DNA of 64,000 nucleotides from Bacteroidota bacterium. GTDB taxonomy: Bacteria > Bacteroidota > Bacteroidia > Palsa-948. The DNA lies in assembly GCA_016213435.1 (NCBI GenBank), contig JACRAL010000037.1:19503-83502 (forward strand), written 5' to 3'. Within the stretch, counting starts at the first letter, position 1; every line of letters begins with the position of its first letter. The position numbers and the translations under genes were made by a program. The notes under the pieces were generated by a model. That model was not told where the DNA came from. It did no database searches and worked only from the letters and a program-made list of their open reading frames with translations. Below are positions 20,209-41,271 of this stretch, piece by piece.

Positions 20209-20229
20209 TAGTTTTATTTAGTTTAATCA

Positions 20230-21126: not shown

Positions 21127-21132
21127 AAAAGA

Positions 21133-21164
21133 AAAGCCCCTCCTAACCTCCCCATTGGGGAGGG
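21133..21164. repeat. GC-rich hairpin element (family GCH), intergenic
   Basis: aaagcccctcctaacctccccattggggaggg. Confidence 0.7.
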
Positions 21165-21175
21165 AATAAAGATAA

Positions 21176-23262: not shown

Positions 23263-23263
23263 G

Positions 23264-25005: not shown

Positions 25006-25007
25006 TA

Positions 25008-25038
25008 AAAGCCCCTCCTGACCTCCCCAAAAGGGAGG
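25008..25038. repeat. GCH element, intergenic
   Basis: aaagcccctcctgacctccccaaaagggagg. Confidence 0.7.
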
Positions 25039-25049
25039 AACGGAACACC

Positions 25050-26939: not shown

Positions 26940-27765
26940 TAATTCAAAATCAAAAATTCCAAGCTCCAAGCTCCAAGCTCCAAGAAAAACCATTTGGGGC
27001 TTTGAACTTGGGATTTGGTGCTTGGGACTTATGCTGCTTGTCTCCCTTCAGGGTTGGGGCATCGCCTTCACTCCTTCTGCTGCACTCGACAGCGCAAATC
27101 ACGCTTATTCAAAAGGGAATTTTGAAAAAGCATCACAGTTGTACAAGGGAATTATAGCGCAAGGATATGAATCACCTGAAGTTTATTTTAATCTTGGTAA
27201 TTCCTACTACAAACTTGCCAAGATCGGAATGTCGGTGTTGAATTATGAACGTGCTAAAAAACTTTCCCCTCAGGATGCAGACATTAACTTTAATCTGAAA
27301 CTTGTTAGTCAGAAAACACTTGACAAGATAGAACCTGCTCCAAAACTTTTTCTCGAAGAATGGTGGGATAATATTAAAAGTATGCACTCTGAAAAAACAT
27401 GGGGAATAAGAAGCATTGTTTGTTTCGTGTTCTTTCTTTTCTTTCTGGGAGTTTTTATTACAACCAAAAAAATTTTAAGCAAGCAGCTTGGTTTCTGGCT
27501 CTCTCTTGTGTTTGTTGTTTTCTCAGCTATTTCCTTCTTCATTTCAAAAAGCAGGTACAACGATATCTCCGGCCAGAATGCGGCTGTTATCCTTTCCTCT
27601 TCAGTCGAAATAAAAAATTCTCCTACTGATGCAGGAATAAAACTTTTCATACTGCATGAAGGAACTAAAGTTGCCGCATCCGAAACAAATGGCGACTGGG
27701 TGAAAATCGAACTTACTTCCGAGAAAGTGGGATGGGTGAAGCGAAGTTCTGTAGAATTCATTTAA
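26929..27765 (+). CDS. batE: BatE (TPR plus C-terminal SH3b domain)
   Basis: I prefer the ATG at 26929 over the ORF-track start at 26839, which overlaps batD by 100 nt. It has TPR repeats, TM helices and GDWVKIELTSEKVGWVKRSSV (SH3b). Confidence 0.75.
   Translation: MRYNNSKSKIPSSKLQAPRKTIWGFELGIWCLGLMLLVSLQGWGIAFTPSAALDSANHAYSKGNFEKASQLYKGIIAQGYESPEVYFNLGNSYYKLAKIGMSVLNYERAKKLSPQDADINFNLKLVSQKTLDKIEPAPKLFLEEWWDNIKSMHSEKTWGIRSIVCFVFFLFFLGVFITTKKILSKQLGFWLSLVFVVFSAISFFISKSRYNDISGQNAAVILSSSVEIKNSPTDAGIKLFILHEGTKVAASETNGDWVKIELTSEKVGWVKRSSVEFI
26958..27030. repeat. Heptamer array TCCAAGC x4 facing an inverted degenerate array (RCTTGGR), forming a potential long hairpin
   Basis: tccaagctccaagctccaagctccaag ... 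atttggggctttgaacttgggatttggtgcttggg. Confidence 0.6.
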
Positions 27766-30220: not shown

Positions 30221-30294
30221 GGTCTCGTAGCTCAATTGGATAGAGCATCTGACTACGAATCAGAAGGTTAAAGGTTCGACTCCTTTCGAGATCA
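30221..30294 (+). tRNA. tRNA-Arg (anticodon ACG)
   Basis: GGTCTCGTAGCTCAATTGGATAGAGCATCTGACTACGAATCAGAAGGTTAAAGGTTCGACTCCTTTCGAGATCA. All four arms pair and the anticodon loop is CT-ACG-AA. Confidence 0.9.
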
Positions 30295-30388
30295 CAATAG
30301 AATGTTTTGTAACAGTAGAGGAACATCCTATATATACGCAGGTCTTTTTATTGAAAGTAAGATTCGTCACTTTCCTTTTTTTTGAGGA

Positions 30389-32152
30389 TTATTTTATCCG
30401 TATCAAAATTTCTGACTTATCTGCCTCGACATCTGTTAACCTCGTTTTGAACTGATGTTGAATGAAATAATCTAATTCTGCAATATCATTCACCGGGTAA
30501 TCAAATACAGGGAATAGCACTCGTTTGTATTGCGCTTTTTGAACCAGTTGATTAAAATATTGCGGATTATGCCCCCATTTTTTTCTGAATATGACAATAT
30601 CAGGCTGGTATTTCAAATCCTCTTGAATATTTTTGTTAATGTACCCAATGGTAACTCTGCAACCTAAATAATAGATGTAGGAGAGTTCTTCATAATTTGT
30701 AGCAATGACGAGGCTATCAGGATGCTTATAATTCGCTTTTATGTAAGGGATTAAATAATCAAGAGGTCCTTTGTATTGGTGCGTGATTTGATAAAAGTAA
30801 CTCTTGCAATAATTAATCTTCGCTTCAGAATTGATGGAAAATGAAATTATCAATGCAATAGTAAATGCAAGTCTCATGAATTTTGCATTCGTCTTTTGTA
30901 CATGGGAAGAAATATAATTGAATATGATAATCGTATCGGTGAGTAATATCAAGATCATAATTGGCTGCAAAACAATAAAATACCTCTCCCACAGCAAGGG
31001 CATTTTAGCTACCATTAAACTAAAACAAATAAAAAATAAAGTCATGAAAAATGACAGTTTTTCCAAATTGATCTCCTGCAAAGATTCTTTTTGATTTCTC
31101 TTTTGTTCCTTTCGTTTGGCGTACCAGATAATCAACTGCAAAGTCTTTACAAAAACAGCGGCATAAAAAAACTCCTGTACTTTAAAAATAAGAACGATCC
31201 TTTTTAGGTTTTCCAGATATCTGTGGAAATCAAGCCCGTAATAGGCCGTTGCTTTTGCAGCGTTCTCAAATGTTTCAAAAAATAGCACAAATGGTGATAT
31301 AAGGACTACTGCAATCAGCATAGGGGACAAATTTTTGAATGTTATTTTTAATTGTCTCCACGTCTCAAAAAATAAATTCTTTTTGTCCTTTCTATCTCCG
31401 AAGATATTGAATGCTCGCTGAAATGCTTCATAGATTCCTATCGTGAGACAAAAAGAAGGAAAAGCTACAAAATTTATCTGGTAGGCAAAAAACAAAACCA
31501 GAATCATTAGGATTAAATATTTTTTAAAGGAATATCTGTTGTTTAAAAAGTATTGAATGAAAACATAAAAAAAACATGCAGTAATAAAAATGAGCAAGGC
31601 ATAATAACGCACTGTTCGGATGTGCAAAAAAAGTGCAACAGAACACAACTCAATTAAAATAAATGCAGCTACAAATTTTTCGTAAGAACTCTTGTTGTTA
31701 AATATCCTGCGGAAGCCAACAACAAAAATTATCAATCCTGCCAGTCCCGCGGTTGCAAAGGGTATCCGTACCAATGCAGATTTCAGGTAGATATCGTCAA
31801 CGTGTTCCGCCAGCGCAACTCCAATGGTTGCAAAATAAAAATCTCCCCATGTACGGGCAATGTTCATATCATAACTTTTCTTATACCCTATCCATGAAGG
31901 ATCATCCGGCAAGAAAATAATATTTTTCTCGTCATGAACTTTTGGATAACCGTATTTTAGCACCTGCGTTGCCGTCATGGCGGTATCTGATTCATCATTC
32001 CAGAGTAAAGGGTAGGAGATATTTTTATAAAGCAGGAAACAAAAAACAAAAAACAATATTGCAATTAAATACTTCAAATCAATCAGTGATTTTTTTTGAG
32101 AAAACTCAGGCAGCGCACTAGCTTTTCTATCAATTTTTTTCTTCCTCATCAC
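30389..32152 (-). CDS. Multi-TM GT-C-fold glycosyltransferase-like protein (ArnT/PMT-like)
   Basis: 587 aa with more than 10 hydrophobic helices, an acidic motif WNDESD in the first extracytoplasmic loop and a soluble C-terminal domain. Confidence 0.55.
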   Translation of the reverse strand: MMRKKKIDRKASALPEFSQKKSLIDLKYLIAILFFVFCFLLYKNISYPLLWNDESDTAMTATQVLKYGYPKVHDEKNIIFLPDDPSWIGYKKSYDMNIARTWGDFYFATIGVALAEHVDDIYLKSALVRIPFATAGLAGLIIFVVGFRRIFNNKSSYEKFVAAFILIELCSVALFLHIRTVRYYALLIFITACFFYVFIQYFLNNRYSFKKYLILMILVLFFAYQINFVAFPSFCLTIGIYEAFQRAFNIFGDRKDKKNLFFETWRQLKITFKNLSPMLIAVVLISPFVLFFETFENAAKATAYYGLDFHRYLENLKRIVLIFKVQEFFYAAVFVKTLQLIIWYAKRKEQKRNQKESLQEINLEKLSFFMTLFFICFSLMVAKMPLLWERYFIVLQPIMILILLTDTIIIFNYISSHVQKTNAKFMRLAFTIALIISFSINSEAKINYCKSYFYQITHQYKGPLDYLIPYIKANYKHPDSLVIATNYEELSYIYYLGCRVTIGYINKNIQEDLKYQPDIVIFRKKWGHNPQYFNQLVQKAQYKRVLFPVFDYPVNDIAELDYFIQHQFKTRLTDVEADKSEILIRIK

Positions 32153-33243
32153 TTTCTTAATTGTAACAACTCGTTACATACAAAGGAAATTTCAGCATTC
32201 TTCAAACTCGGAAAAGTAGGCAAACTTAGAACGTGCCGGCTAATGTTCTCGCAAATGGGGAGAGAATGTTTTTTGTATATCTTCAGCAAACTAGAAGCAA
32301 AAAAACCGGGACGGGTTTCAATACCTTTTTCTCTCAATTGTTCTATTACTTTATCTCTTCCCTGAGGAAAATTCTTTGAGTGCAATTTTAAAGCAAGTGC
32401 CCAAATTACAGGATCGACATCCTTTTCTATTTTTTGCAAAACAATTCCATCAACACCTGTCAAATGTTTTTTGTACTCTTCATAAACTCTTTTTCTTTCG
32501 GAAAGAATTACGTTAATTTTTTCGAATTGCGCTACGCCCATTGCCGCCTGAAAATTGGTGAGACGGAAATTATGTCCCGGAACTTCGTGCCAGTAAAAAC
32601 TTTTACTTCTATCCATTCCATGGCTTCTGTACAGCATCATTTTTTTATTCAGATCCTCGGAGTCGGTAGCCACTAAACCTCCTTCGCCAGTTGTAATTGT
32701 TTTTGTAGCTTGAAAACTGAATGTGCTTATATTCCCGAATGAGCCACAATAATTCCCTTTATATTTAGAAAAGAGGGATTCGGCACAATCTTCAATCACA
32801 GCGATTTTTTTTTCTTTAGCAATACGCATGATCTTATTCATATTGCAAACATTGCCATACGTATGGATAGGAATGATCGCTTTTGTTTTTGATGAAATAT
32901 ATTTCGGCAGATGTTTTGGGGAAAGACACCAGGTATCAGGATCTACCTCAGCAAAAACAGGTTTCAGCCCCATGTGCAATGCAATATTTGAGGCAGCTAG
33001 AAATGAGAATCCAGGAACAACCACTTCATCATTTGGTTTTAATCCCAATCCTAAATACGCAAGATGAATTGCAGTAGTTCCGTTGGAAACAGCAAGAACA
33101 TGTTTTTTATCAAGGACCTTTTTAAAATCATTTTCCAACTTGTCAAGATAGGTTCCGCCAGAAATCCAACTTGATTCGAGCGCATCGGTAACATATTTTA
33201 TTTCATTTCCCCAAAAATCGGGTTTTGTCCATGGGATTTGCAT
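32149..33243 (-). CDS. DegT/DnrJ/EryC1/StrS (ArnB-type) sugar aminotransferase
   Basis: 364 aa; typical N-terminus and the SFQATKTITTGEGG PLP-lysine region. Confidence 0.9.
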   Translation of the reverse strand: MQIPWTKPDFWGNEIKYVTDALESSWISGGTYLDKLENDFKKVLDKKHVLAVSNGTTAIHLAYLGLGLKPNDEVVVPGFSFLAASNIALHMGLKPVFAEVDPDTWCLSPKHLPKYISSKTKAIIPIHTYGNVCNMNKIMRIAKEKKIAVIEDCAESLFSKYKGNYCGSFGNISTFSFQATKTITTGEGGLVATDSEDLNKKMMLYRSHGMDRSKSFYWHEVPGHNFRLTNFQAAMGVAQFEKINVILSERKRVYEEYKKHLTGVDGIVLQKIEKDVDPVIWALALKLHSKNFPQGRDKVIEQLREKGIETRPGFFASSLLKIYKKHSLPICENISRHVLSLPTFPSLKNAEISFVCNELLQLRK

Positions 33244-33244
33244 A

Positions 33245-33934
33245 TTATTTTTTCTTAAGTTCTAAAATGAATCCCGTTCCGAGTGTTCTGTTCTCGACAA
33301 TAGTAAATCCGTGCTTAGCTATTAAAGAAGAAATTTGTTTTTGGCTATGGAAGCTGTAATGTCTTACATCTAGAAAACTCAATACCCTCCTCGTAATATT
33401 AAAAATATTATTCTTGTCATTATAATTGAAAAGAGCTTTGTCTGTGTAAGGTAAAATGTTGTCAAAAAAAATACCGACTTCAGAAATATAGGGAACCACA
33501 CCAATTGAAATTGCAACATCTACCACAGGTATATTGTGTTTCGTAATATCCAATTGAGAAACTTGAAGATTTTTGATATTGGTGTCTGATGATAAATTCT
33601 TTTTAGTTAATTCTACAGCGCTATGAACGTAATCCATGGCATATACATGTGCTCCTTTATCCAACATTTTTTTTGAAAAAATTCCTGAGCCACATCCAAT
33701 GTCTGCCACTTTCATTCCTGGCTTTACATGTTTATCTATGAAAGCACAAACAATATTGTACCTTTCTAAGGTTACTTTTCTTTCTAAAGGAAAAATAAAC
33801 TTCTTGTACAAACCAGATAATCCAAATGGGATGTTAATCTGTTCCTCAGAAGTTATATAGTAAAAACCTGAGTATTTCTCAATGTTTTTTTCCCAATAGT
33901 CTTTATTAATTGTATTGTCCGTATGTTTTTCCAT
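33245..33934 (-). CDS. Class I SAM-dependent methyltransferase
   Basis: VADIGCGSGIFS motif I. Confidence 0.8.
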   Translation of the reverse strand: MEKHTDNTINKDYWEKNIEKYSGFYYITSEEQINIPFGLSGLYKKFIFPLERKVTLERYNIVCAFIDKHVKPGMKVADIGCGSGIFSKKMLDKGAHVYAMDYVHSAVELTKKNLSSDTNIKNLQVSQLDITKHNIPVVDVAISIGVVPYISEVGIFFDNILPYTDKALFNYNDKNNIFNITRRVLSFLDVRHYSFHSQKQISSLIAKHGFTIVENRTLGTGFILELKKK

Positions 33935-34865
33935 ATGTAATTTTATTTTTAATTATGTCTGTTATAAATTCGCTTAAAGATTCCCGAAGCCAGGCATCCG
34001 AAGATCGCCAGCTAAAATCGGAACTTTGTTCGTCTAAAGTTACGTTTTCCGAATTAACGGTTACACTATATAAAGAGGAAATATTATGGATGACCCTGTC
34101 ATTTTTTAGATTATAAACAAATTCAAAATTTCCAATTTCAGTGTAGTGCGTCCCTTCAAGATTACATTCTTCTTTTAGCTTTCTTATTGCAGTATCAGTT
34201 CTTTTCTCTCCGAAATGCACTCTGCCTCCAGGAACCCACCATTTATCTTTTTCTGGTTCATTTTTTCTTTTCACTAATAATATTTCTCCTTTTTTATTTC
34301 GAACCAACAAATCAACGCAGGGAATAGACAAGGATTGCAGAATGACATTGTACAGATCATCTCTTATGAATTGAATTTTGTCTTTATCGTTAGCCTGTTC
34401 ATCCCAAAAAGAAGGATCAGTTTTTTTTTGTGATAAATTAAGTAGCAAATGTTTAAGAAAACCATGCTCCACCTTTTTTAACCATTCGGAGACCTGTGCC
34501 CATTTAAATTCATTGCTTTGAGAATCTATTTTTACTTCGCCATGAGAAATTTTCATCACATAAATAGTGGATATAATATGATGGTGATGATTTGCTTCTT
34601 TATTTTTTACCTGATAGTCATACATTCCAAAGTCTGTAATGGCAGAAGCTGTCATTCCGCATTCATTTTTCAATAATCTTTTTGCAGCATTCATTCTGCT
34701 TTCTGCAAATAGAATTCTTCCTCCGGGAATCCACCACTGAGATTTTGCTGGTTCGTTTTCCCTTTTGAGCATCAGAATCTCATTTTGCTGATTAAGCACA
34801 AGTAATTCTACAGCATTGATAGGGAAAGTGCGTATTATTTCAGTATAAAGTTTTTGTTCAATCAT
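33906..34865 (-). CDS. Tandem Nudix hydrolase (two Nudix domains in one polypeptide)
   Basis: Two Nudix boxes: WWIPGGRILFAESRMNAAKRLLKNECG and WWVPGGRVHFGEKRTDTAIRKLKEECN. Confidence 0.8.
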   Translation of the reverse strand: MIEQKLYTEIIRTFPINAVELLVLNQQNEILMLKRENEPAKSQWWIPGGRILFAESRMNAAKRLLKNECGMTASAITDFGMYDYQVKNKEANHHHHIISTIYVMKISHGEVKIDSQSNEFKWAQVSEWLKKVEHGFLKHLLLNLSQKKTDPSFWDEQANDKDKIQFIRDDLYNVILQSLSIPCVDLLVRNKKGEILLVKRKNEPEKDKWWVPGGRVHFGEKRTDTAIRKLKEECNLEGTHYTEIGNFEFVYNLKNDRVIHNISSLYSVTVNSENVTLDEQSSDFSWRSSDAWLRESLSEFITDIIKNKITYGKTYGQYN

Positions 34866-34880
34866 AACGGCCCATTAATA

Positions 34881-35462
34881 TTACAAGGGAAAATTTACAG
34901 GGGAATGCACATGTCTTACTATTGGTAAAATTAATTCTAGATCATCCTCAAAAATCCTTTCACTGACATTTTTAGGAAGCCCTATGAAATCCTTAAAGCC
35001 ATCTCGTAGAACTTTTTGTCTGCGGATCTTTAATGGAAAATCTTCTTCCCATACTTGCTGGTTCCACTTTATAATCATTTTTGGAAGAAATGGGGCAAGA
35101 ATGAGTTTCCATCCTGTTAGCACAAATTTGTAGTTCATGGTAATCTTTGACTTGTCCATTCCTATTTCTTCCACAGTAATGGTTGTTGCGGAAGGTAATC
35201 CAAACAATCCGACATTGTACACTTTAATTGTATTGGAATTTTTTTGAATCATTACATTTAATGATTTTGATTGTAAAAAAGAAAAAACAGGAAGTTTAAA
35301 TGTTAACAAGTAAACTGCAATTTTTTCATCCTCATAAATTATTTTTGCACTAGTGTAGTTCTTGTGTACAACTATCAAATGTTCGTGATCCCAATAGTTC
35401 CACAACACTACTGCCCTAGATGCATCAATTTCTCGAACGACTTCTTTTTCTATGATTTTCAT
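34881..35462 (-). CDS. Stand-alone Rieske-oxygenase catalytic (non-heme iron) domain-like protein
   Basis: 193 aa. WNYWDHEHLIVVH fits the D-x2-H-x4-H mononuclear iron motif, and the gene is adjacent to a Rieske protein gene. Confidence 0.5.
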   Translation of the reverse strand: MKIIEKEVVREIDASRAVVLWNYWDHEHLIVVHKNYTSAKIIYEDEKIAVYLLTFKLPVFSFLQSKSLNVMIQKNSNTIKVYNVGLFGLPSATTITVEEIGMDKSKITMNYKFVLTGWKLILAPFLPKMIIKWNQQVWEEDFPLKIRRQKVLRDGFKDFIGLPKNVSERIFEDDLELILPIVRHVHSPVNFPL

Positions 35463-35473
35463 TGTAAATACTA

Positions 35474-35875
35474 TTACGTAGTTAAAGGAATAATAATCTC
35501 TATACGGTCATTATTTATATGCAAATCATAGGATTGTAATTTTCCCTTAAAGGGAAAGCAACCCAACGGCTCATGTGCATTCTTCAAGATTTTTCCTACC
35601 AAAGAAGTTTCTTCATAGCTTTCCCACTGAGCAAGACTTTGGCAGGTGTTGAGATCGAATTTCCATCCGTGCCATCTGCATCTTAAAATGTCTTTTGAAG
35701 AATCATAATCAAACTCTCCGCCAAAATGAGGGCATACTGTTGAAACTGCTTTGGGTTTTCCTTGCATCCAAAAAACTGAAATCTCATCTTTTAATTCGTC
35801 AATAAACTTTGTGACCTTTTTTTTATCTTTCAATTCTGAAAGGGAGCAAAAATGGTATATCTTCCGATCTTCCAT
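35474..35875 (-). CDS. Rieske [2Fe-2S] domain protein
   Basis: CPHFGGEFDYDSSKDILRCRWHGW fits C-x-H-x15-C-x2-H. Confidence 0.85.
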   Translation of the reverse strand: MEDRKIYHFCSLSELKDKKKVTKFIDELKDEISVFWMQGKPKAVSTVCPHFGGEFDYDSSKDILRCRWHGWKFDLNTCQSLAQWESYEETSLVGKILKNAHEPLGCFPFKGKLQSYDLHINNDRIEIIIPLTT

Positions 35876-35890
35876 GGTCTTATTATAGTT

Positions 35891-37141
35891 TTAAGGTATT
35901 ATTTTCACCTCGGGCAAGGGGATGATGAACTTTGTTCCGCTTTTTACTAGATCTTTTTCTCGTTCCATAAATCCGGTAACGAAGCTGTAAGGGAGCGCAA
36001 GCAGATAATCCGGCTTGGCCTTATGCATTTCGTCCTCATCTTTTATAGGAATATCTGCTCCTATGATGTATTTACTGAACTTGAAGGAATTTGAATCAGC
36101 TGCTGCTGTTATCAGATCGCTCTTAATATCGCAATACTGAAGTATTGTATTTCCTTTTGTAGAGGCACCGTAGATCCATAATTTTTTTCCTTGTGCTTTT
36201 ATCTTTTTGCAGAGTTTGATGAGATCAATGCGCGTCTTTTCCACTCGCTTCATAAAGCTGATATAAATGGAAGGATTGTATATCCCCATTTGCAGTTCAT
36301 TTTGCAATTCTTTGCGATAGCGTTCTGTTGGGGGATATTTTTTGCATCCTTTCTTCTTTATAAACACTCTGAAACTTCCACCGTATACATCGTTCAAGGT
36401 AACGTCAAAAATTTCCAGTCCTGCTTTATCCATGATCCATCGCATGTGGTCGGTCGCATAATATCCAACGTGCTCATGCACAATATTATCATACATGTTT
36501 GTTTGTATCATTGCCGGGAGATATGCCATTTGCACCACCCAAATTCCATCTTCAGCCAGGCAAGCTGCAGCATCTTTTGAAAACTGGATAGGATCATACA
36601 AGTGATAGAACATTGCAATACTGAAGATCATTTTAGCTTTTTTATCAGTAACTGAATTGTAAGTTTTTTCGTTAAAAAAACCGTTAACTTTTATAAACTT
36701 CTCCGATTGAAAAACCGTCTTTACATTTTGAGCGGCATCAATGCACACCAAGTCGCATGGTGTATTTTTCAAATACGATAAAAGCGTTCCGTCATTCCCC
36801 CCGATATCTAACACCAGATCGTTGTCAGTTAAAGTAGCATGAGCCAGAGCGCTGTCCAAAACATCCTTCAGGATCTTAGGCATGGAAGAATTTGTGGAAC
36901 TTGTGAACGGATAATTCTCATACATGCTTGACATATCAAAAGAATGCCCTAGCTGCAAAACACCGCAGCTGTTTTCATTCTTTTCACACAATACTAAATC
37001 CAAAGGCTGCTTTTTGATATCCTTGCGGTAAGAAAGGTCTTTTGGGAAAATAGAGGACAAGTATTGATCTCCTAAATCGATAACAGGTATCAGCGATGTG
37101 TTTCCGCAAAAACGGCATTTGGTGATTTTTACAGTGCTCAT
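35891..37141 (-). CDS. NDP-hexose C-methyltransferase (TylCIII-like)
   Basis: 416 aa with an N-terminal zinc-ribbon motif CRFCGN..L..VIDLGDQYLSSIFP, a class I methyltransferase core and a C-methyltransferase C-terminal domain. Confidence 0.75.
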   Translation of the reverse strand: MSTVKITKCRFCGNTSLIPVIDLGDQYLSSIFPKDLSYRKDIKKQPLDLVLCEKNENSCGVLQLGHSFDMSSMYENYPFTSSTNSSMPKILKDVLDSALAHATLTDNDLVLDIGGNDGTLLSYLKNTPCDLVCIDAAQNVKTVFQSEKFIKVNGFFNEKTYNSVTDKKAKMIFSIAMFYHLYDPIQFSKDAAACLAEDGIWVVQMAYLPAMIQTNMYDNIVHEHVGYYATDHMRWIMDKAGLEIFDVTLNDVYGGSFRVFIKKKGCKKYPPTERYRKELQNELQMGIYNPSIYISFMKRVEKTRIDLIKLCKKIKAQGKKLWIYGASTKGNTILQYCDIKSDLITAAADSNSFKFSKYIIGADIPIKDEDEMHKAKPDYLLALPYSFVTGFMEREKDLVKSGTKFIIPLPEVKIIP

Positions 37142-37165
37142 ATTCTATATGTCAAGTTTATAAAA

Positions 37166-37855
37166 TTATTTTTTCATTGTATCGAGAAATCTGAAAACCT
37201 CTTTTGCATCAGGAAAAACAGGGTCAGGGTTTTCAATTTCCTGTACATCCATGGCACCCTCAAATTCAATATCAGTCTTTAAATACTTAGCAATATCGAT
37301 CATGCTTATAGTATTAATAGCGCCCACTTCAACAATGCCTTTTAAATCCAAATGAGAAGCAATGTAGCTTGAAACGAAATCAACGCTTGCAAAAGCATAC
37401 CTACTTTCACCGTTCACAAATACTTTTTGACCGTTGAGCATATCTATCAATACACCTTTTTTCAATCCGTTTCCAAACATAGAACTTAATCGTAGAATCA
37501 GGTGGTTGCCAAAATTACAAATGTTTTCAGCAGCTAATTTATGCCTCCCGTAAACAGTATCTAGCTGACATCGTGCCGAGACGGTACTGACCTGCACAAA
37601 TTTTTCATACGTGCATTTGTAAAATATATCTGCTGTTTTCTGAACTGTTTCTTGGAAATCTTTCTCTGGATTATTTTTTGCCCAGAATCTAGCAGCCGGA
37701 TGTGCTGTATTTATTACTATGTCATAGTGTTTACCTATATGCTCTTGGTAATTAGCGCGTGTAACTGAAATGACATGATATTTTTTAGCAGTCAGGGCAG
37801 CACACAAGTTGCGTCCGATAAATCCATTGGCTCCAAACACCGCGACAGTAGTCAT
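37166..37855 (-). CDS. Short NAD(P)-dependent SDR (epimerase/reductase-like)
   Basis: GANGFIGRNL Rossmann motif; 229 aa. Confidence 0.7.
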   Translation of the reverse strand: MTTVAVFGANGFIGRNLCAALTAKKYHVISVTRANYQEHIGKHYDIVINTAHPAARFWAKNNPEKDFQETVQKTADIFYKCTYEKFVQVSTVSARCQLDTVYGRHKLAAENICNFGNHLILRLSSMFGNGLKKGVLIDMLNGQKVFVNGESRYAFASVDFVSSYIASHLDLKGIVEVGAINTISMIDIAKYLKTDIEFEGAMDVQEIENPDPVFPDAKEVFRFLDTMKK

Positions 37856-38259
37856 TTTTTTTTGCTGTCAAATATATCTTCTCTTATTATTGGATCTTTG
37901 CAATCATCCCAGGGTTTTGTGAGCATTGCCACGGCTGTTAAAGGCGTAATGGCATAGATAGTATGCGTAACTCCTATGGGAGTCCTGACGCAGCTTCCCT
38001 TGCTGATATGAATGATTCTCTCTTTCATATCCGGAGCATCCCGTGTAACAGCAATGCCCGAACCTTCCACCACTAAAAAGTATTCAACAAATTCAGGGTG
38101 AAAATGATTCCCTCGTGTGGTGGCAGGAGTAAAATATAGAAGATTAAATTCCATGATCTTGTCCTGAGGAACCCATGTAAAAATTCCTCCGCGGCCGTCT
38201 TTAACAGTATCCACGTTACAACTCGGGGAGAATACTTCCATTCTTTCGTTTGACAACAT
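37852..38259 (-). CDS. Cupin-fold protein (WbuC/CapF C-terminal-like sugar epimerase/isomerase)
   Basis: 135 aa; the ..TTRGNHFHPEFVEYFLVVEGSG.. cupin motif. Confidence 0.55.
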   Translation of the reverse strand: MLSNERMEVFSPSCNVDTVKDGRGGIFTWVPQDKIMEFNLLYFTPATTRGNHFHPEFVEYFLVVEGSGIAVTRDAPDMKERIIHISKGSCVRTPIGVTHTIYAITPLTAVAMLTKPWDDCKDPIIREDIFDSKKK

Positions 38260-38271
38260 AGCAGTATGTTT

Positions 38272-38976
38272 TTATAAGTTTCTTATTCTGAACAATAAAA
38301 GTTCCTTCGTATATCTGAAAACCCTTGGGATAAGATTTTTATTTCCCACGCCAAAATTTCTTTGCCCAAATATAGCAGGTATTTGTAAAATGGAACAGTT
38401 TTTTTTCTGAAGAAAATAGAGCAATCGCATATAATAATCTCCGAATCCAAAAAATATTTTATTAAAATCACATTTATAAATCACCTCTTTTTTTATTGCA
38501 AAATAACCGAACAGGTTCTCAGTAATTCCCGATAAAAGTGTAAAACGAATAAACAAATTAAACATCCAACTCGATATTATTCTGAATAAATTATAATGTT
38601 TTTCAAGGGGAAAGTATAGAAATCTGGAGCCAATGACACAGTCATAATATTTCAAATTATCAATCATGATAGGTAAATATTTAGGTAGATGATTAAAATC
38701 AGAATCCATTACGACAATAATATCACCGGAGGCATTTTCAATTCCGCATCGGATGGATTTTGCAAAGCCCCTGTCTGTTTCTCTTAAAATTGCTTTAACA
38801 TAAGAAAGATTTAAATCAAGCAGTGCCTTATAAGTGCCGTCCGGGCTGTTATCATCAACCACTAATATGTCATGATCATATCCGGCAATTGCTTCGTGTA
38901 TCGCAGGAACTAACATTAATATCGAATCCTTTTCATTATATGCAGGCAAAATGACAGATACTTTTTTGTTTTCCAT
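38272..38976 (-). CDS. GT2 polyprenyl-phosphate glycosyltransferase-like (ArnC/DPM1-like)
   Basis: VSVILPAYNE...VVDDNSPDGT...DSD, a GT-A DxD fold. Confidence 0.8.
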   Translation of the reverse strand: MENKKVSVILPAYNEKDSILMLVPAIHEAIAGYDHDILVVDDNSPDGTYKALLDLNLSYVKAILRETDRGFAKSIRCGIENASGDIIVVMDSDFNHLPKYLPIMIDNLKYYDCVIGSRFLYFPLEKHYNLFRIISSWMFNLFIRFTLLSGITENLFGYFAIKKEVIYKCDFNKIFFGFGDYYMRLLYFLQKKNCSILQIPAIFGQRNFGVGNKNLIPRVFRYTKELLLFRIRNL

Positions 38977-39072: not shown

Positions 39073-41271
39073 TTGTTTTTGCGAGGCGTGCATATTTTAT
39101 ACATTTGCACCAACTACTTTTCATTCATTCCTGTGCGTATAATAATATTTTCAGTCACAATTTTCTGCTTAGGACTTACTGTTGTTTTCTCACAAGGCAC
39201 TTGGACTCAAAAAGCAAATTTTGGTGGAGGTTCAAGAGGCTGGGCAACAGGATTCTCTATTGGAAATAAAGGATACATCGGGCTTGGTGCAAATCCAATG
39301 AGTGTTAAGTGGAATGATTTCTGGGAATGGGATCAGGCAACAAATGTGTGGACTCAAAAAGCAAATTTTCCCGGAACAGCGAGAGATAACGCGTCCGGTT
39401 TTTCTATCGGAACAAAAGGATATATTGGAATTGGAGGCATTTATTCTGGCGGGCCTTTTTATTCCGATTTATGGGAGTGGGATCAGGCGACAAATACATG
39501 GAGTCAAAAAGCAAGTTTTCCTGGAACTGCACGTCAACTTGCTGCTGGTTTTTCTATTGGCACCAAAGGTTATTTTGGAACTGGAGGGGTTGATCCAAGC
39601 GGACCATTCTATTCTGATTTCTGGGAATGGGATCAAGCATCAAATGTTTGGACTCAAAAAGCAAATTTTGGAGGAACTACAAGGAATGGTGCGGTTGGAT
39701 TTTCTATCGGCACAAAAGCGTATATCGGAACCGGACGTACAGCAAGCGGCTTTACAAATGATTTCTGGGAATGGGACCAAGCATCAAACACCTGGACACA
39801 AAAAGCAAATTTTGGTGGAGGAGCCAGGTATGCGGCAACTGCATTTACAATTGGAACAAAAGGATATGTTGGAACAGGATATAACGGGTCATTTCAACAA
39901 ACATTTTGGGAATGGAATCAGACAACAAACGTTTGGACTCAACTGGCAAATTTTGGAGGAGGAATTACTTCAAGTGCGGCCGGTTTTTCTATTGGTAATT
40001 GCGGATATGTTGGAACAGGAGGCCATACAAGTTCCGGTATACTGACCGATAGCTTTTGGGAGTTTTGTCCCAATTCCAGCTGCTGTAATATTTTAACTGT
40101 TACAGCCGTTTCACAAAATATTTTATGCAACTCACAATGCACCGGCACCGGCACCGGCACCGTAAATCCTGCTAACGGAACAGCCCCTTACACTTACAAT
40201 TGGAGCAACGGGCAAACTTTTCAAACAGCCACCGGTCTTTGCGCAGGAACTTATTCTGTATTAGTTACAGATGCATCCAGCGCAACAAGTTCAGCAACTG
40301 TTACTATCACGCAACCTGCTACACTATCTTCATCGGCAGATTCCTCCTCTGCTACTTGCCTTAACAACAATGGCAGTGCATCCATAACTGCAAGCGGAGG
40401 AACGCCCGGATATTCTTACAGTTGGAATCCATCATCTCAAACTTCTCAAACTGCGACCGGGCTTGTTGCAGGAAATTATTCAGTGATTATTACGGATGCA
40501 AACGGCTGTACTAAAACGCAAACTGTAACAGTGACAGCAACCAGCCCCCTGATACTGAACACTTCTTCTACGCAAACAGGATGCACGTTAAATAACGGAA
40601 CCGCTTTGGCTAACCCAAACAACGGAACTGCTCCTTACTCTTATAACTGGAACAACGGACAAACTTCTCAAACTGCAACAGGCCTTGGAGTTGGTAACTA
40701 TACAGTATCGGTGACAGATGCAAATGGATGCGTACAATCGCAAACCATTACAGTGATTTCCTCTCCCGGTCCCGCTGTATCCGTAAGTTCAGTAACAAAT
40801 GCTGTTTCTTCGGGCGACAGCACCTTGCTTAGTGCAACAGGAGGAGGAACTTATCAATGGACACCCTCCACGGGATTAAGCTGCACTACCTGCGCAAACA
40901 CCCAGGCAACTCCTGCGCAAACCACCACGTATTGTGTTTTGGCCACCGACAGCAACGGATGCACCGGCAGCGCCTGCCTCAGTATTGAAATACTCTGCGG
41001 AAATCTTTTTGTTCCCAACGCCTTTTCGCCTAACAACGATGAACAAAATGATTTTGAATGCGTAATGGGCAACTGTATACAAACTTTATATTTTACTATT
41101 TACAACCGCTGGGGAGAAAAAGTATTTGAAACTACCGATCCAAAAATCTGCTGGGATGGGATTTATAAAGGAAAGCTAATGAATACAGCGGTGTTCGTTT
41201 ATTATTTAGAAGCAACGCTGACCAACGGGACAAAAATTAATAAAAAGGGAAATATTTCTCTGGTCAGATAA
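39073..41271 (+). CDS. Secreted repeat protein: 6 Kelch-like blades, 4 SprB/HYR-like repeats and a T9SS type B (CHU_C) sorting domain
   Basis: WTQKANFGG..R..A.GFSIG.KGY.GTG repeats x6, then NG.A...GGTAPYSY.WNNGQTSQTATGL..GNY.V.VTDANGC x4, then a C-terminal FVPNAFSPNNDEQND...IYNRWGEKVFE. The likely start is the GTG at 39133, which gives a signal peptide. Confidence 0.85.
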   Translation: MFLRGVHILYICTNYFSFIPVRIIIFSVTIFCLGLTVVFSQGTWTQKANFGGGSRGWATGFSIGNKGYIGLGANPMSVKWNDFWEWDQATNVWTQKANFPGTARDNASGFSIGTKGYIGIGGIYSGGPFYSDLWEWDQATNTWSQKASFPGTARQLAAGFSIGTKGYFGTGGVDPSGPFYSDFWEWDQASNVWTQKANFGGTTRNGAVGFSIGTKAYIGTGRTASGFTNDFWEWDQASNTWTQKANFGGGARYAATAFTIGTKGYVGTGYNGSFQQTFWEWNQTTNVWTQLANFGGGITSSAAGFSIGNCGYVGTGGHTSSGILTDSFWEFCPNSSCCNILTVTAVSQNILCNSQCTGTGTGTVNPANGTAPYTYNWSNGQTFQTATGLCAGTYSVLVTDASSATSSATVTITQPATLSSSADSSSATCLNNNGSASITASGGTPGYSYSWNPSSQTSQTATGLVAGNYSVIITDANGCTKTQTVTVTATSPLILNTSSTQTGCTLNNGTALANPNNGTAPYSYNWNNGQTSQTATGLGVGNYTVSVTDANGCVQSQTITVISSPGPAVSVSSVTNAVSSGDSTLLSATGGGTYQWTPSTGLSCTTCANTQATPAQTTTYCVLATDSNGCTGSACLSIEILCGNLFVPNAFSPNNDEQNDFECVMGNCIQTLYFTIYNRWGEKVFETTDPKICWDGIYKGKLMNTAVFVYYLEATLTNGTKINKKGNISLVR

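What the first reader, a model, noticed from the sequence alone, without database searches (positions are those of the whole stretch)
30389..38976. Ten-gene Arn-like operon for a heavily tailored amino sugar, with no characterised counterpart I can name
Ten co-directional minus-strand genes are packed with 4-nt overlaps or gaps of 25 nt or less. By eye they are more AT-rich than the flanks, and the operon begins right after tRNA-Arg (30221-30294), a classic island border. The content has ArnB/ArnC/ArnT logic: a DegT-type aminotransferase, a GT2 polyprenyl-phosphate glycosyltransferase-like enzyme, and a 587-aa multi-TM protein with an acidic WNDESD first loop (GT-C-like). On top of this triad sit a TylCIII-type C-methyltransferase, a second SAM methyltransferase, a cupin plus a short SDR, a two-gene Rieske oxygenase and a tandem Nudix protein. 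I see no nucleotidyltransferase, no 4,6-dehydratase, and no Wzx/Wzy or ArnE/F-like flippase. The inference is that a branched (C-methyl), methylated and oxygenated amino sugar is loaded on a polyprenyl phosphate. A GT-C enzyme then transfers it in the periplasm to lipid A, LPS core or a protein. I do not recognise this combination as a described pathway.
Basis: partly seen in the sequence, partly recalled or inferred. Interest (0 to 1): 0.7.

Follow-up and report, generated by a model that had tools for sequence, protein, structure and literature searches.

The report
Rare-sugar envelope decoration operon, new GT-C
A Bacteroidota bacterium carries a ten-gene operon that most likely builds an unusual methyl-branched amino sugar, loads it onto a membrane lipid carrier and attaches it to the cell surface with a membrane enzyme from a widespread but unnamed and unstudied family.

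Summary
The 587-aa protein has no Pfam or NCBIfam match. Its high-confidence model is a GT-C fold, with ArnT as the best PDB match. The "two-gene Rieske oxygenase" is real: a Rieske protein plus a separate SRPBCC catalytic subunit with an invariant D-x2-H-x4-H motif.

The chemistry looks GDP-mannose-derived rather than Arn-like:
- The aminotransferase is closest to GDP-perosamine synthase.
- The Nudix protein is a fused pair of GDP-mannose mannosyl hydrolase-like domains.
- The GT2 is closest to dolichol-phosphate-mannose synthase.
- Relatives in candidate-phyla-radiation (CPR) bacteria carry Gmd inside the cluster.

The tRNA-island idea is not supported. A close relative carries a different cassette at the same cbs-adjacent site, so this is a variable surface-glycan locus. 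A seven-gene core in the same order recurs in other Bacteroidota, once inside a Wzx/NeuB polysaccharide locus. The GT-C family also occurs in lineages generally regarded as lacking lipid A, so lipid A is an unlikely general acceptor.

I found no characterised counterpart. This is a new variant of the known "polyprenyl-phosphate sugar synthase + GT-C" decoration scheme. The sugar structure, flippase and acceptor remain unknown.

The parts
38272..38976 (-). GT2, 234 aa, no TM segment. Predicted polyprenyl-phosphate glycosyltransferase of the DPM1/Ppm1/DPMS type. First gene of the operon.
   Evidence: PF00535, E 1e-26. Best PDB hit is Pyrococcus Dol-P-Man synthase 5mlz, E 3e-30 over residues 3-225, followed by ArnC and GtrB. 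NCBIfam hits ArnC, AglJ, PgfS and PpgS are all below cut-off. No hydrophobic segment. 67-68% identical to the first gene of the L088 and L089 blocks.
37852..38259 (-). Cupin, 135 aa, like the C-terminal domain of CapF/WbcJ. Predicted keto-sugar epimerase.
   Evidence: PF14667 E 1.5e-10 and Cupin_2. PDB Cap5F residues 248-345, E 5e-5. 72-86% identical to cupins in L019, L088 and L089.
37166..37855 (-). Short extended-SDR, 229 aa, like the N-terminal domain of CapF. Predicted NAD(P)H-dependent keto-sugar reductase.
   Evidence: PF01370 and RmlD_sub_bind. The only PDB sequence hit is Cap5F residues 3-139, E 0.009. The sequence shows GANGFIG and YGRHK (YxxxK) motifs. 62-69% identical to partners in CPR and Bacteroidota loci.
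35891..37141 (-). NDP-hexose 3-C-methyltransferase of the TylC3/MtmC/TcaB9/KijD1 type, 416 aa.
   Evidence: Methyltransf_13 + Methyltransf_23 + Methyltransf_14. Full-length PDB hits MtmC 4rv9 (9e-50), KijD1 and TcaB9. Four Cys at C9, C12, C52 and C59 are visible in the sequence. 70-78% identical to C-MTs of L019, L033, L088 and L089, but only 43% to L003.
35474..35875 (-). Rieske [2Fe-2S] subunit, 133 aa, of a split Rieske non-haem iron oxygenase.
   Evidence: PF00355, E 4.5e-11. CPH...CRWH motif in the sequence. A Rieske gene lies immediately upstream of the 193-aa family member in 5 of 5 contexts seen.
34881..35462 (-). Catalytic (mononuclear iron) subunit of the split Rieske oxygenase, 193 aa, SRPBCC fold.
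   Evidence: No Pfam, NCBIfam or PDB sequence hit. 46 homologue clusters, all unnamed. Invariant W21-N-Y-W-D25-x2-H28-x4-H33, plus E140, D141 and D158. AF2 pLDDT 93.4. Foldseek places KshA first and SxtT/GxtA catalytic domains in the top ranks, interleaved with non-oxygenase SRPBCC proteins at similar E-values.
33906..34865 (-). Tandem (fused-dimer) Nudix protein, 319 aa. Both halves are GDP-mannose mannosyl hydrolase-like.
   Evidence: Two PF00293 stretches. NF011963 GDP-mannose mannosyl hydrolase, E 1e-30, 106 bits against a cut-off of 146. PDB 1rya/2gt4 Gmm. The halves are 37% identical to each other. Both Nudix boxes are altered from the canonical REUxEE (RLLKNE and RKLKEE); the first resembles the Gmm variant as I recall it. 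19 full-length tandem homologue clusters.
33245..33934 (-). Class I SAM methyltransferase, 229 aa. Predicted to methylate the amino (or a hydroxyl) group of the sugar. It occupies the slot held by a GNAT acetyltransferase in related clusters.
   Evidence: Methyltransf_31/23/11/25. Only weak, generic PDB hits; the best are phosphoethanolamine N-methyltransferases. L003, L088, L089 and a JGI contig have an acetyltransferase between Nudix and DegT instead. The P0121 contig has a 228-aa MT next to DegT.
32149..33243 (-). DegT-family PLP sugar aminotransferase, 364 aa, closest to GDP-perosamine synthase (C-4 transaminase).
   Evidence: PF01041, E 2e-108. PDB Caulobacter perosamine synthase 3bn1/3dr4, E 3e-73, against ArnB 7e-47. 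Below every NCBIfam equivalog cut-off. The sequence keeps a lysine in the SFQATK motif, which I read as the PLP lysine by analogy. 77% identical to L003 and 73% to L088.
30389..32152 (-). GT-C-fold membrane glycosyltransferase, 587 aa (586 from the ATG), of an unnamed family, with a C-terminal soluble domain at about residues 460-587. Last gene of the operon.
   Evidence: No Pfam, NCBIfam or PDB sequence hit. AF2 pLDDT 92.8, pTM 0.92. Foldseek hits: ArnT 5ezm/5f15 (E 7e-6 to 2e-5, TM about 0.5), then ALG12, STT3, ALG9, AftA and Pmt4. K/R-rich N-terminus, TM1, then an invariant P48-L49...E54 loop. 145 relatives in GTDB species genomes. 379 representatives at E<=1e-30 and 1044 at E<=1e-10.

Best explanation
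The operon encodes an extracytoplasmic glycan-decoration system of the 'polyprenyl-phosphate sugar synthase + GT-C transferase' kind. It is fused to a cassette that tailors a rare sugar derived from GDP-mannose.

Proposed route (enzyme classes are shown; order and regiochemistry are inferred):
1. GDP-mannose is converted to GDP-4-keto-6-deoxymannose by a Gmd encoded elsewhere in the genome.
2. The TylC3/TcaB9-type enzyme methylates C-3.
3. The split CapF-like cupin and SDR epimerise and/or reduce the keto-sugar.
4. The perosamine-synthase-like DegT aminates the 4-keto group.
5. The 229-aa methyltransferase methylates the product, probably on the amine, because it replaces the N-acetyltransferase of sister clusters.
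6. The split Rieske oxygenase hydroxylates the sugar or one of its methyl groups, either on the GDP-sugar or on the lipid-linked sugar.
7. The fused Gmm-like Nudix protein hydrolyses GDP-hexoses, as a control or proof-reading step.
8. The DPMS-like GT2 transfers the finished sugar to undecaprenyl phosphate on the cytoplasmic face.
9. An unidentified flippase moves it across the membrane.
10. The 587-aa GT-C enzyme transfers it to an envelope acceptor.

My best guess for the acceptor in this organism is a surface glycan: an LPS or capsular polysaccharide, or the glycan of O-glycoproteins. Lipid A phosphate seems less likely. The locus behaves as a cassette-swapping surface-diversity locus.
For: GT-C enzyme (shown):
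- GT-C fold with ArnT, ALG, STT3, Aft and PMT as the only significant structural matches.
- Acidic first loop conserved.

GT2 (shown):
- Closest to Dol-P-Man synthase, ArnC and GtrB, all polyprenyl-phosphate glycosyltransferases.
- A short GT2 lies within 8 kb of family members in 36 of 80 non-redundant loci, and L001 adds a GtrA flippase.

GDP-mannose origin (four independent hints):
- Per-like DegT.
- Gmm-like Nudix.
- DPMS-like GT2.
- Gmd adjacent to the 62-74% identical cupin-SDR-C-MT cassette in Saccharibacteria and Nomurabacteria loci.

Tailoring enzymes:
- C-MT class shown.
- CapF-like split shown.
- Split Rieske oxygenase shown by motif, fold and adjacency.
- MT and GNAT alternate in the same slot beside DegT.

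Locus behaviour:
- The GT2-cupin-SDR-C-MT-Nudix2-X-DegT order is conserved in L088 and L089, so the reductase and the aminotransferase belong to one selected unit.
- L089 sits in a Wzx/NeuB polysaccharide locus.
- Flanks are 74-95% identical to L003, but cluster proteins are only 42-77% identical, which indicates cassette replacement at a fixed site.
Against: - No Gmd, ManC or flippase was found in the cluster or elsewhere in the 64-kb window, so the GDP-mannose origin rests on homology and on relatives.
- A 4-ketoreductase and a 4-aminotransferase compete for the same keto group. I cannot write a single route that needs both, so the cluster may make two donors, or the SDR may act at another position or in the oxidative direction.
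- The Rieske pair also occurs in a minimal Rieske + catalytic subunit + GT2 + polytopic-protein cluster with no sugar-tailoring genes (L086). Its substrate may therefore be the lipid-linked sugar, or something else tied to the GT2.
- No reductase or ferredoxin partner is present.
- In L088 and L089 the membrane protein after DegT is not a member of this GT-C family, so the sugar cassette and this GT-C are not obligately coupled.
- All relatives come from uncultured genomes, and nothing has been tested biochemically.
Confidence: 0.6

Rival explanations
1. Arn-like lipid A modification. The amino sugar, kept cationic by N-methylation instead of N-acetylation, is transferred by the GT-C enzyme to lipid A or core phosphates and lowers susceptibility to cationic peptides.
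For: - ArnT is the top structural match.
- An aminotransferase, a polyprenyl-P GT2 and a GT-C form the same triad as ArnB/C/T.
- The window variant has a methyltransferase where sister clusters have an N-acetyltransferase, so the amine would stay charged.
Against: - The GT-C family occurs in Saccharibacteria, Nomurabacteria, Bacillota and Bifidobacteriaceae assemblies, lineages generally regarded as lacking lipid A (my knowledge). Its C-terminal domain is strongly conserved across them.
- The TM-score to ArnT is only about 0.5, and ALG, STT3, Aft and PMT score similarly.
- No PMT_2 or ArnT profile hit.
- DegT, GT2 and Nudix point to GDP-perosamine-type chemistry rather than UDP-Ara4N chemistry.
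- Most sister clusters N-acetylate, giving a neutral sugar.
Confidence: 0.1
2. Protein O-glycosylation. The GT-C enzyme transfers the lipid-linked sugar directly to Ser/Thr of secreted or surface proteins, as PMT does. Candidate targets are T9SS cargo such as the adjacent SprB/Kelch/CHU_C protein, or pilins in other phyla.
For: - PMT-family structures are among the significant fold hits.
- PMT_2 GT-C genes and TPR-containing membrane proteins (one of which also carries PMT_2) are neighbours of family members in 20 and 17 of 80 loci.
- In the window, the divergently transcribed neighbour is a T9SS-secreted SprB-repeat protein.
- In L004 the homologue follows pilin and T2SS-type genes.
- A protein acceptor would fit the distribution across lineages with one or two membranes.
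Against: - All of this evidence is circumstantial adjacency.
- The SprB-like gene is absent from the syntenic L003 locus.
- No acceptor motif was tested.
- L089 lies inside a polysaccharide locus.
Confidence: 0.2
3. The 587-aa protein is an oligosaccharyltransferase-, ligase- or polymerase-type enzyme that uses undecaprenyl-diphosphate-linked glycans. The GT2 would then be an ordinary cytoplasmic glycosyltransferase that adds the rare sugar to a lipid-PP-linked oligosaccharide.
For: - STT3/OST structures are among the top fold hits.
- The GT2 has no TM segment and misses every curated equivalog cut-off.
- No mono-phosphate flippase (GtrA or SMR type) is present in the cluster.
Against: - The best sequence matches of the GT2 are all polyprenyl-monophosphate sugar synthases: DPMS 3e-30, ArnC and GtrB. 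DPM1/Ppm1-type enzymes also lack TM helices (established knowledge).
- No initiating phosphoglycosyltransferase or further GTs are present in the cluster.
- L001 pairs the family with GtrA.
- No Wzy, WaaL or RodA-type structure appears among the hits.
Confidence: 0.1

Closest known systems
Three-component periplasmic glycosylation systems (GtrA/GtrB/Gtr* of Shigella/Salmonella; pentofuranose systems with GT136, Kelly et al. 2024, PMC11127046)
   Same: A cytoplasmic enzyme charges polyprenyl phosphate with one sugar, and a GT-C-fold enzyme adds it to an envelope glycan outside the cytoplasm. The systems are modular, variable and tied to surface diversity (for the published scheme; for the parts here).
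   Different: - No flippase gene is present in the cluster.
- The GT2 is a soluble DPMS/DPM1-like type without GtrB's TM helices.
- The GT-C belongs to a family with no Pfam or NCBIfam model.
- The donor is not a common sugar; an eight-gene cassette tailors it in cis.
- The cluster is not on a prophage and, in this window, not in an O-antigen locus.
Arn pathway (ArnB, ArnC, ArnT with ArnA/D/E/F) for L-Ara4N on lipid A
   Same: It has the same triad of DegT aminotransferase, polyprenyl-P GT2 and GT-C. ArnT is the best structural match of the 587-aa protein.
   Different: - All three Arn equivalog models are missed by a wide margin: ArnB 215 bits against a cut-off of 631, ArnC 51 against 529, and no ArnT hit.
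- No ArnA, ArnD or ArnE/F is present.
- The nucleotide is probably GDP rather than UDP.
- The family's taxonomic range includes lineages generally regarded as lacking lipid A.
GDP-perosamine / GDP-N-acetylperosamine genes of O-antigen clusters (Gmd, Per, N-acetyltransferase and the Nudix GDP-mannose mannosyl hydrolase, e.g. E. coli O157 and Caulobacter; from my knowledge of those clusters)
   Same: A Per-like aminotransferase is the best PDB hit. A Gmm-like Nudix is present. Sister clusters carry an N-acetyltransferase beside DegT.
   Different: - Gmd, ManB and ManC are absent from the cluster and the window.
- The Nudix is a fused tandem.
- The cluster adds C-3 methylation, a CapF-like pair and a Rieske oxygenase.
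- The product is predicted to go to a lipid-phosphate carrier and a GT-C, not to a cytoplasmic Leloir GT.
Branched 3-C-methyl-6-deoxyhexose pathways: proposed GDP-virenose route of Coxiella (PMC3539893, PMC3204966); TylC3/MtmC/TcaB9/KijD1 systems; natural 3-C-methyl-4-amino-4,6-dideoxyhexoses such as N-acylkansosamine and sibirosamine (my knowledge)
   Same: The same class of 3-C-methyltransferase acts on a 4-keto-6-deoxy sugar nucleotide, followed by epimerase/reductase or 4-aminotransferase steps. The Coxiella proposal also starts from GDP-mannose.
   Different: - Those sugars are used by Leloir glycosyltransferases in O-antigen, glycolipid or antibiotic assembly.
- None is known to be carried on polyprenyl monophosphate or paired with a GT-C.
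- None involves a Rieske oxygenase.
Rieske non-haem iron oxygenases (KshA, SxtT/GxtA, NDO-type alpha subunits)
   Same: A Rieske CxH...CxxH cluster is present. The catalytic partner has an SRPBCC fold and a D-x2-H-x4-H plus Asp iron motif.
   Different: - The two domains are separate polypeptides, and the catalytic part is only 193 aa.
- The genomic context is always a short GT2 plus a large polytopic membrane protein.
- No reductase gene is nearby.
- I know of no Rieske oxygenase in bacterial glycan tailoring, and two literature searches found none.

Membership tests
GT-C fold glycosyltransferases | Polytopic membrane domain of about 7-13 TM helices. | tested here: met
   The AF2 model (pLDDT 92.8) has about 13 long helices between residues 26 and 457. 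Hydropathy shows about 10 segments.
GT-C fold glycosyltransferases | Conserved acidic residue(s) in the first extracytoplasmic loop just after TM1. | tested here: met
   In W51-N-D53-E54-S, E54 is invariant and D53 is at least 90% conserved in 52 sequences at 30-65% identity. The K/R-rich N-terminus before TM1 places the loop outside the cytoplasm (sequence).
GT-C fold glycosyltransferases | Structural similarity to solved GT-C enzymes. | tested here: met
   The top 19 Foldseek hits are all GT-C enzymes: ArnT, ALG12, STT3, ALG9, AftA, Pmt4, Pmt1/2, AftB, ALG6 and EmbA-EmbB. The 12 hits with E<=1e-3 are all among them. Best E 7e-6, TM 0.46-0.56.
GT-C fold glycosyltransferases | Uses a polyprenyl-(di)phosphate-linked sugar donor. 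| not testable with these tools
   Context only: a DPMS-like GT2 in the same operon, and a short GT2 within 8 kb in 36 of 80 loci.
ArnT / PMT_2 sequence families (GT83, GT39) | Match to the family profile (PF13231, PF02366, NCBIfam ArnT). | tested here: not met
   No Pfam or NCBIfam hit at E<=0.01. A profile of 52 homologues finds no GT-C chain in PDB by sequence.
Arn pathway | ArnB and ArnC equivalogs. | tested here: not met
   NF008658 scores 215 bits against a cut-off of 631. NF007986 scores 51 bits against a cut-off of 529.
Arn pathway | ArnA (UDP-GlcA decarboxylase/formyltransferase), ArnD deformylase and ArnE/F flippase present. | tested here: not met
   None of the ten proteins has these domains, and the gaps of 24 nt or less leave no room for small ORFs.
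Gtr-type three-component system | GtrA-family flippase encoded with the GT2 and the GT-C. | tested here: not met
   No GtrA homologue in the window by single-sequence phmmer. One is present in the relative L001.
Gtr-type three-component system | GtrB/DPMS-like polyprenyl-phosphate glycosyltransferase. | tested here: inconclusive
   The best PDB hits are DPMS (3e-30), ArnC and GtrB, but every curated NCBIfam cut-off is missed and the C-terminal TM helices are absent.
GDP-perosamine synthase (Per) type aminotransferases | Closest similarity to Per, with the PLP-binding lysine retained. | tested here: met
   3bn1/3dr4, E 3e-73 over residues 6-358. A lysine sits in SFQATK, read as the PLP lysine by analogy. 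Substrate nucleotide and regiochemistry were not tested.
GDP-mannose mannosyl hydrolase (Gmm/WcaH/WbdQ) | Match to the NF011963 subfamily model above its cut-off. | tested here: not met
   106 bits against a cut-off of 146, summed over two domains. It is still the best hit in both NCBIfam and PDB. The protein is Gmm-like, not a member.
NDP-hexose 3-C-methyltransferases (TylC3/TcaB9) | Three-domain architecture: Zn-binding Methyltransf_13, a SAM domain and Methyltransf_14. Full-length similarity to solved members. | tested here: met
   All three Pfam domains score above cut-off. MtmC 9e-50, with KijD1 and TcaB9 at 1e-34 to 1e-36, over residues 5-416. Four Cys are present.
Rieske non-haem iron oxygenases | Rieske 2Fe-2S motif, plus an SRPBCC catalytic domain with the 2-His-1-carboxylate motif. 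| tested here: met
   PF00355 and the CPH...CRWH motif. Invariant D25-x2-H28-x4-H33 and D141/D158. The fold matches KshA, SxtT and GxtA. The domains are on two polypeptides, which is atypical.
Rieske non-haem iron oxygenases | Dedicated reductase or ferredoxin partner. | tested here: not met
   None in the cluster, and none next to the pair in L085 or L086.
tRNA-targeted genomic island | Integrase, and a direct repeat of the tRNA 3' end at the far border. | tested here: not met
   The 23-nt tRNA-Arg 3' end occurs once in the window at up to 3 mismatches. No flanking direct repeats. No integrase among the cluster or the Pfam-scanned flank ORFs. A relative has a cassette at the same cbs-adjacent site.

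The most novel reading that the evidence does not exclude
The 587-aa protein founds a new glycosyltransferase family of GT-C fold, present in Bacteroidota, CPR and many other phyla. Its strongly conserved C-terminal domain recognises an acceptor common to bacteria with one or two membranes. In this reading the family installs cassette-encoded rare sugars as a previously unrecognised envelope modification. The associated split Rieske/SRPBCC oxygenase would be the first Rieske oxygenase acting on a bacterial glycan building block, possibly on the polyprenyl-phosphate-linked sugar itself. That possibility follows from its occurrence with only a GT2 and a polytopic membrane protein in the minimal L086 cluster.
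Probability: 0.25. Interest if true: 0.75.

Novelty: new variant of a known kind. Interest (0 to 1): 0.58.

Why it matters
If the model is right, three consequences follow:
- A family with roughly 400 to 1,000 representatives at 50% identity, no name and no studied member would become a new GT-C glycosyltransferase family. Its readable genetic context shows interchangeable rare-sugar cassettes feeding one lipid-carrier/GT-C exit route. This would extend the three-component decoration paradigm beyond common sugars and beyond Proteobacteria and Firmicutes, into Bacteroidota and CPR bacteria, whose envelopes are essentially uncharacterised.
- A methyl-branched, aminated and probably hydroxylated 6-deoxyhexose would be a predicted new envelope constituent.
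- The split Rieske oxygenase would become a new tool for sugar C-H oxidation.

The cassette swap between two close relatives at one chromosomal site suggests strong diversifying selection, for example from phage or grazers, on this surface structure.

Tried and rejected
1. tRNA-borne island. There is no att-like repeat, no flanking direct repeats and no integrase. Synteny with L003 argues for in-place cassette exchange.
2. Sigma-70 promoter and intrinsic terminator scan. Counts equal the shuffled expectation, so the scan is uninformative, as expected for Bacteroidota.
3. Sequence-only search of PDB with the 587-aa family profile and the 193-aa protein. It gave only spurious GPCR hits or nothing. 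Structure prediction was needed.
4. I first read the cupin-SDR-C-MT cassette as a CPR-to-Bacteroidota transfer, because it is 62-74% identical to Saccharibacteria and Nomurabacteria genes but only 43% to L003. I dropped the direction claim after finding equally or more similar copies (64-86%) in other Bacteroidota. The cassette is simply mobile across phyla.
5. I tested whether the large membrane proteins next to the Rieske pair or the sugar block in L085, L086, L088 and L089 belong to the same GT-C family. There was no HMM hit in any of the four, and no hhalign hit for the two tested (L085, L086). They are polytopic, but their fold was not determined.
6. I considered the tandem Nudix as an EvaA-like 2,3-dehydratase, which is also a double Nudix fold (my knowledge). 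There is no Hexose_dehydrat Pfam hit and no EvaA hit in PDB, while Gmm is the best match, so I rejected it as the leading reading.
7. Literature searches for this GT-C family, for Rieske enzymes in glycan tailoring and for a kansosamine-type pathway returned nothing relevant.
8. I could not name the organism. The flanks (Bat operon, FloA, SprB/CHU_C T9SS protein) and the nearest homologues indicate Bacteroidota.

Full report
**What is in the sequence**

Ten minus-strand ORFs occupy 30389-38976. Junctions are gaps of 1-24 nt or 4-nt overlaps, apart from one 29-nt overlap between the Nudix and methyltransferase genes. An independent gene call on an identical public contig gives the same ten genes. 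tRNA-Arg(ACG) lies at 30221-30295 on the + strand, 93 nt beyond the operon's 3' end. GC content is 0.353 in the cluster and 0.397 in the rest of the window.

The left flank holds the Bat aerotolerance operon, a metallophosphoesterase, NfeD and FloA. The right flank holds a divergently transcribed SprB-repeat/Kelch/CHU_C (T9SS) protein, cystathionine beta-synthase, MlaD and Fe-S/CCG proteins. This points to a Bacteroidota genome, and the cluster is not inside an O-antigen or capsule locus.

**The enzymes**

Comparison with solved structures sharpens the assignments:
- GT2 (234 aa, no TM segment): best match is Pyrococcus dolichol-phosphate-mannose synthase (E 3e-30, nearly full length), ahead of ArnC and GtrB.
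- Cupin and 229-aa SDR: these match the C-terminal and N-terminal domains of Cap5F respectively. Together they form a split, order-swapped CapF-like epimerase/reductase.
- C-methyltransferase: a full-length relative of MtmC, KijD1 and TcaB9.
- DegT: closest to GDP-perosamine synthase (3e-73), with ArnB at 7e-47.
- Nudix protein: two GDP-mannose mannosyl hydrolase-like domains that are 37% identical to each other.
- 229-aa methyltransferase: a generic class I enzyme.

**The 587-aa protein**

It has no Pfam, NCBIfam or PDB sequence match. All 185 detected homologues are annotated as hypothetical or carry no source name. An AlphaFold2 model built on 52 homologues is confident (pLDDT 92.8, pTM 0.92). 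Foldseek returns only GT-C enzymes at significant scores: ArnT first (E 7e-6, TM about 0.5), then ALG12, STT3, ALG9, AftA and Pmt4.

A K/R-rich N-terminus precedes TM1. TM1 is followed by P48-L49-x-W-N-D53-E54, which is invariant or nearly so. This is the position where GT-C enzymes carry their catalytic acidic residues (established knowledge, summarised in PMC11127046). The protein has the fold but belongs to no named sequence family.

**The Rieske pair**

The 193-aa protein has no database match by sequence and 46 unnamed homologue clusters. Three lines of evidence identify it:
- Invariant residues are W21-N-Y-W-D25-x2-H28-x4-H33 plus E140, D141 and D158. This is the bridging-Asp/2-His motif and a candidate carboxylate ligand of Rieske oxygenases.
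- Its model (pLDDT 93.4) has an SRPBCC fold. KshA is the top hit and the SxtT/GxtA catalytic domains are in the top ranks, interleaved with non-oxygenase SRPBCC proteins at similar E-values.
- In all five contexts seen, a small Rieske gene lies immediately upstream.

This is a Rieske non-haem iron oxygenase split into two polypeptides. I have not seen that arrangement described.

**Comparative context**

*The GT-C family.* It is rare but widespread: 145 relatives in GTDB species genomes, all uncultured. They span Bacteroidota, many CPR lineages, Omnitrophota, Nitrospirota, Myxococcota, Desulfobacterota-like 'delta' genomes, Bacillota and Bifidobacteriaceae. An exhaustive profile search finds 379 representatives at E<=1e-30 and 1044 at E<=1e-10. 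Within 8 kb of the gene in 80 non-redundant loci, the commonest neighbours are:

| Neighbour | Loci (of 80) |
|---|---|
| Short GT2, about 246 aa | 36 |
| PMT_2 GT-C proteins | 20 |
| TPR-containing membrane proteins of about 575 aa (one member, L033, also hits PMT_2) | 17 |
| Methyltransferases | 13 + 9 |
| DUF7657/DUF7654 proteins | 11 |
| 4,6-dehydratases | 10 |

A 52%-identical homologue (L001) follows a GT2, a methyltransferase and a GtrA flippase. Upstream of these lies a quite different sugar cassette with a nucleotidyltransferase, a 4,6-dehydratase, a TPP enzyme and DHQS. The recurring unit is therefore GT2 + GT-C, fed by interchangeable sugar cassettes.

*The sugar cassette.* In Saccharibacteria (L019) and Nomurabacteria (L033), cupin-SDR-C-MT genes are 62-74% identical to the window's genes. 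They sit beside GDP-mannose 4,6-dehydratase, a short GT2 and a member of this GT-C family. In two other Bacteroidota assemblies (L088, L089) the order is GT2-cupin-SDR-C-MT-tandem Nudix-acetyltransferase-DegT, as in the window, at 47-86% identity. L089 lies inside a polysaccharide locus with NeuB, a CMP-sugar synthetase and a Wzx-type flippase.

A JGI contig shows Rieske-193aa-tandem Nudix-GNAT-DegT. Another contig shows C-MT-GT2-MT-DegT-MT-Rieske-193aa. In L088 a 54-codon ORF between C-MT and Nudix resembles the first 40 residues of the Rieske protein (49% identity, E 1e-7). That suggests the Rieske pair was lost there.

The window's ten-gene set is thus one combination within a family of mix-and-match clusters. 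None of the 80 GTDB loci retrieved carries all ten genes. Its distinguishing features are the Rieske pair and a methyltransferase in the slot where relatives carry an N-acetyltransferase.

*Not a tRNA island.* L003 has flank proteins 74-95% identical to the window's right flank (cbs, MlaD, Fer4, LNS2, CCG). It carries a seven-gene variant at the same site: C-MT, GT2, single Nudix, GNAT, DegT, MT, GT-C. Those proteins are only 42-77% identical to the window's. No att repeat or integrase is present. This is the signature of a hypervariable surface-structure locus.

**Mechanism**

*Shown:* the enzyme classes, the GT-C fold, the split oxygenase and the conserved gene orders.

*Inferred:*
- The sugar derives from GDP-mannose. 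This rests on the Per-like DegT, the Gmm-like Nudix, the DPMS-like GT2 and Gmd inside the CPR clusters.
- It is C-3 methylated and C-4 aminated, then methylated (probably on nitrogen) and hydroxylated.
- The GT2 puts it on undecaprenyl phosphate, and the GT-C transfers it to an envelope acceptor.

*Unresolved:*
- Gmd and the flippase are not found in the window.
- A 4-ketoreductase and a 4-aminotransferase would compete for the same carbonyl, yet they are co-conserved. Either two donors are made or one enzyme acts elsewhere.
- The substrate of the Rieske enzyme is unknown. Its presence in the minimal cluster Rieske + catalytic subunit + GT2 + polytopic protein (L086) hints that it may act on the lipid-linked sugar.
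- The acceptor is unknown. The family's presence in lineages generally regarded as lacking lipid A argues against lipid A as the general target. So does its strongly conserved C-terminal domain. L089 and the cassette-swapping behaviour favour a surface glycan. The PMT_2 neighbours, the adjacent T9SS protein and the pilin context in L004 keep protein glycosylation open.

**Comparison with known systems**

The system works like a Gtr-type or pentofuranose-type three-component system (PMC11127046), and in outline like Arn. It fails the membership tests for Arn: all equivalog cut-offs are missed and ArnA/D/E/F are absent. It lacks the GtrA component. Its sugar enzymology is nearest to GDP-perosamine and 3-C-methyl-6-deoxyhexose pathways. 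Literature searches found no description of this GT-C family, of such a cluster, or of a Rieske oxygenase in bacterial glycan tailoring. The library is incomplete, so this absence is weak evidence.

**Verdict**

The feature is real and correctly read in outline. I classify it as a new variant of a known kind. It has three unstudied elements: an unnamed GT-C family, a split Rieske oxygenase tied to GT2/membrane-protein pairs, and a predicted new branched amino sugar. Interest is moderate to high for glycobiology, limited by the known overall logic and by the lack of any experimental handle on an uncultured organism.

Noticed in passing
window 34881-35875; L085 7681-8600; L086 7685-8615: The split Rieske oxygenase (a small Rieske protein plus a 193-204-aa SRPBCC catalytic subunit) forms its own small family of 46 clusters with no Pfam model. 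In every context seen it lies near a short GT2 and a large polytopic membrane protein. In L086 these four genes stand alone among housekeeping genes, so the oxygenase may act on a lipid-linked sugar.
   Followed up: partly
L088 8840-9004: A 54-codon ORF between the C-methyltransferase and the tandem Nudix gene resembles the first 40 residues of the window's Rieske protein (49% identity, E 1e-7). It looks like a remnant left by deletion of the Rieske pair.
   Followed up: partly
window 35891-38259 vs L019 5339-7683 and L033 15175-17762: The cupin, SDR and C-methyltransferase genes are 62-74% identical at the protein level between this Bacteroidota window and Saccharibacteria/Nomurabacteria (CPR) genomes. 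That is far closer than the phyla are related, so the cassette has moved between phyla. The direction is unknown.
   Followed up: partly
window 39073-41271 (+): A 732-aa SprB-repeat/Kelch/Big_9/CHU_C (T9SS-secreted) protein is transcribed divergently from the operon, 96 nt away. It is absent from the otherwise syntenic L003 locus, where cbs directly abuts the cluster. It could be co-acquired cargo or a candidate acceptor. It contains a perfect 21-nt direct repeat at 39202-39222 and 39349-39369.
   Followed up: no
L039 2819-8461; L014 9914-15116; L041 1279-4438; L087 8286-11728: Several genomes carry two or three tandem paralogues of the unnamed GT-C family. This would fit several acceptor sites or several donors per organism.
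   Followed up: no
L088 11922-14258; L089 11903-13804: In the two closest sugar-cassette relatives, the gene after DegT is not this GT-C family. L088 has a 778-aa MFS_1 + spermine-synthase-like fusion and L089 has a 633-aa polytopic protein with no Pfam hit. Both are uncharacterised and may be alternative transferases.
   Followed up: partly
window 33906-33934: The tandem Nudix gene and the following methyltransferase gene overlap by 29 nt. This is the only junction in the operon that is not a short gap or a 4-nt overlap, and the same overlap appears in the independent gene call on L002. It may mark the seam where the methyltransferase replaced the acetyltransferase of sister clusters.
   Followed up: no
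window 19222-27765 (+): A complete Bat-type aerotolerance operon lies to the left of the cluster: MoxR AAA ATPase, DUF58, an unnamed ORF, BatA, BatB, a TPR protein (BatC-like), BatD and a second TPR protein. It is ordinary for Bacteroidota and is noted only as taxonomic context.
   Followed up: no
11 of 80 loci, e.g. L084 11725-13764; P0121 contig: A 675-680-aa DUF7657/DUF7654 protein recurs next to members of the GT-C family and upstream of one sister cluster. Its function is unknown.
   Followed up: no
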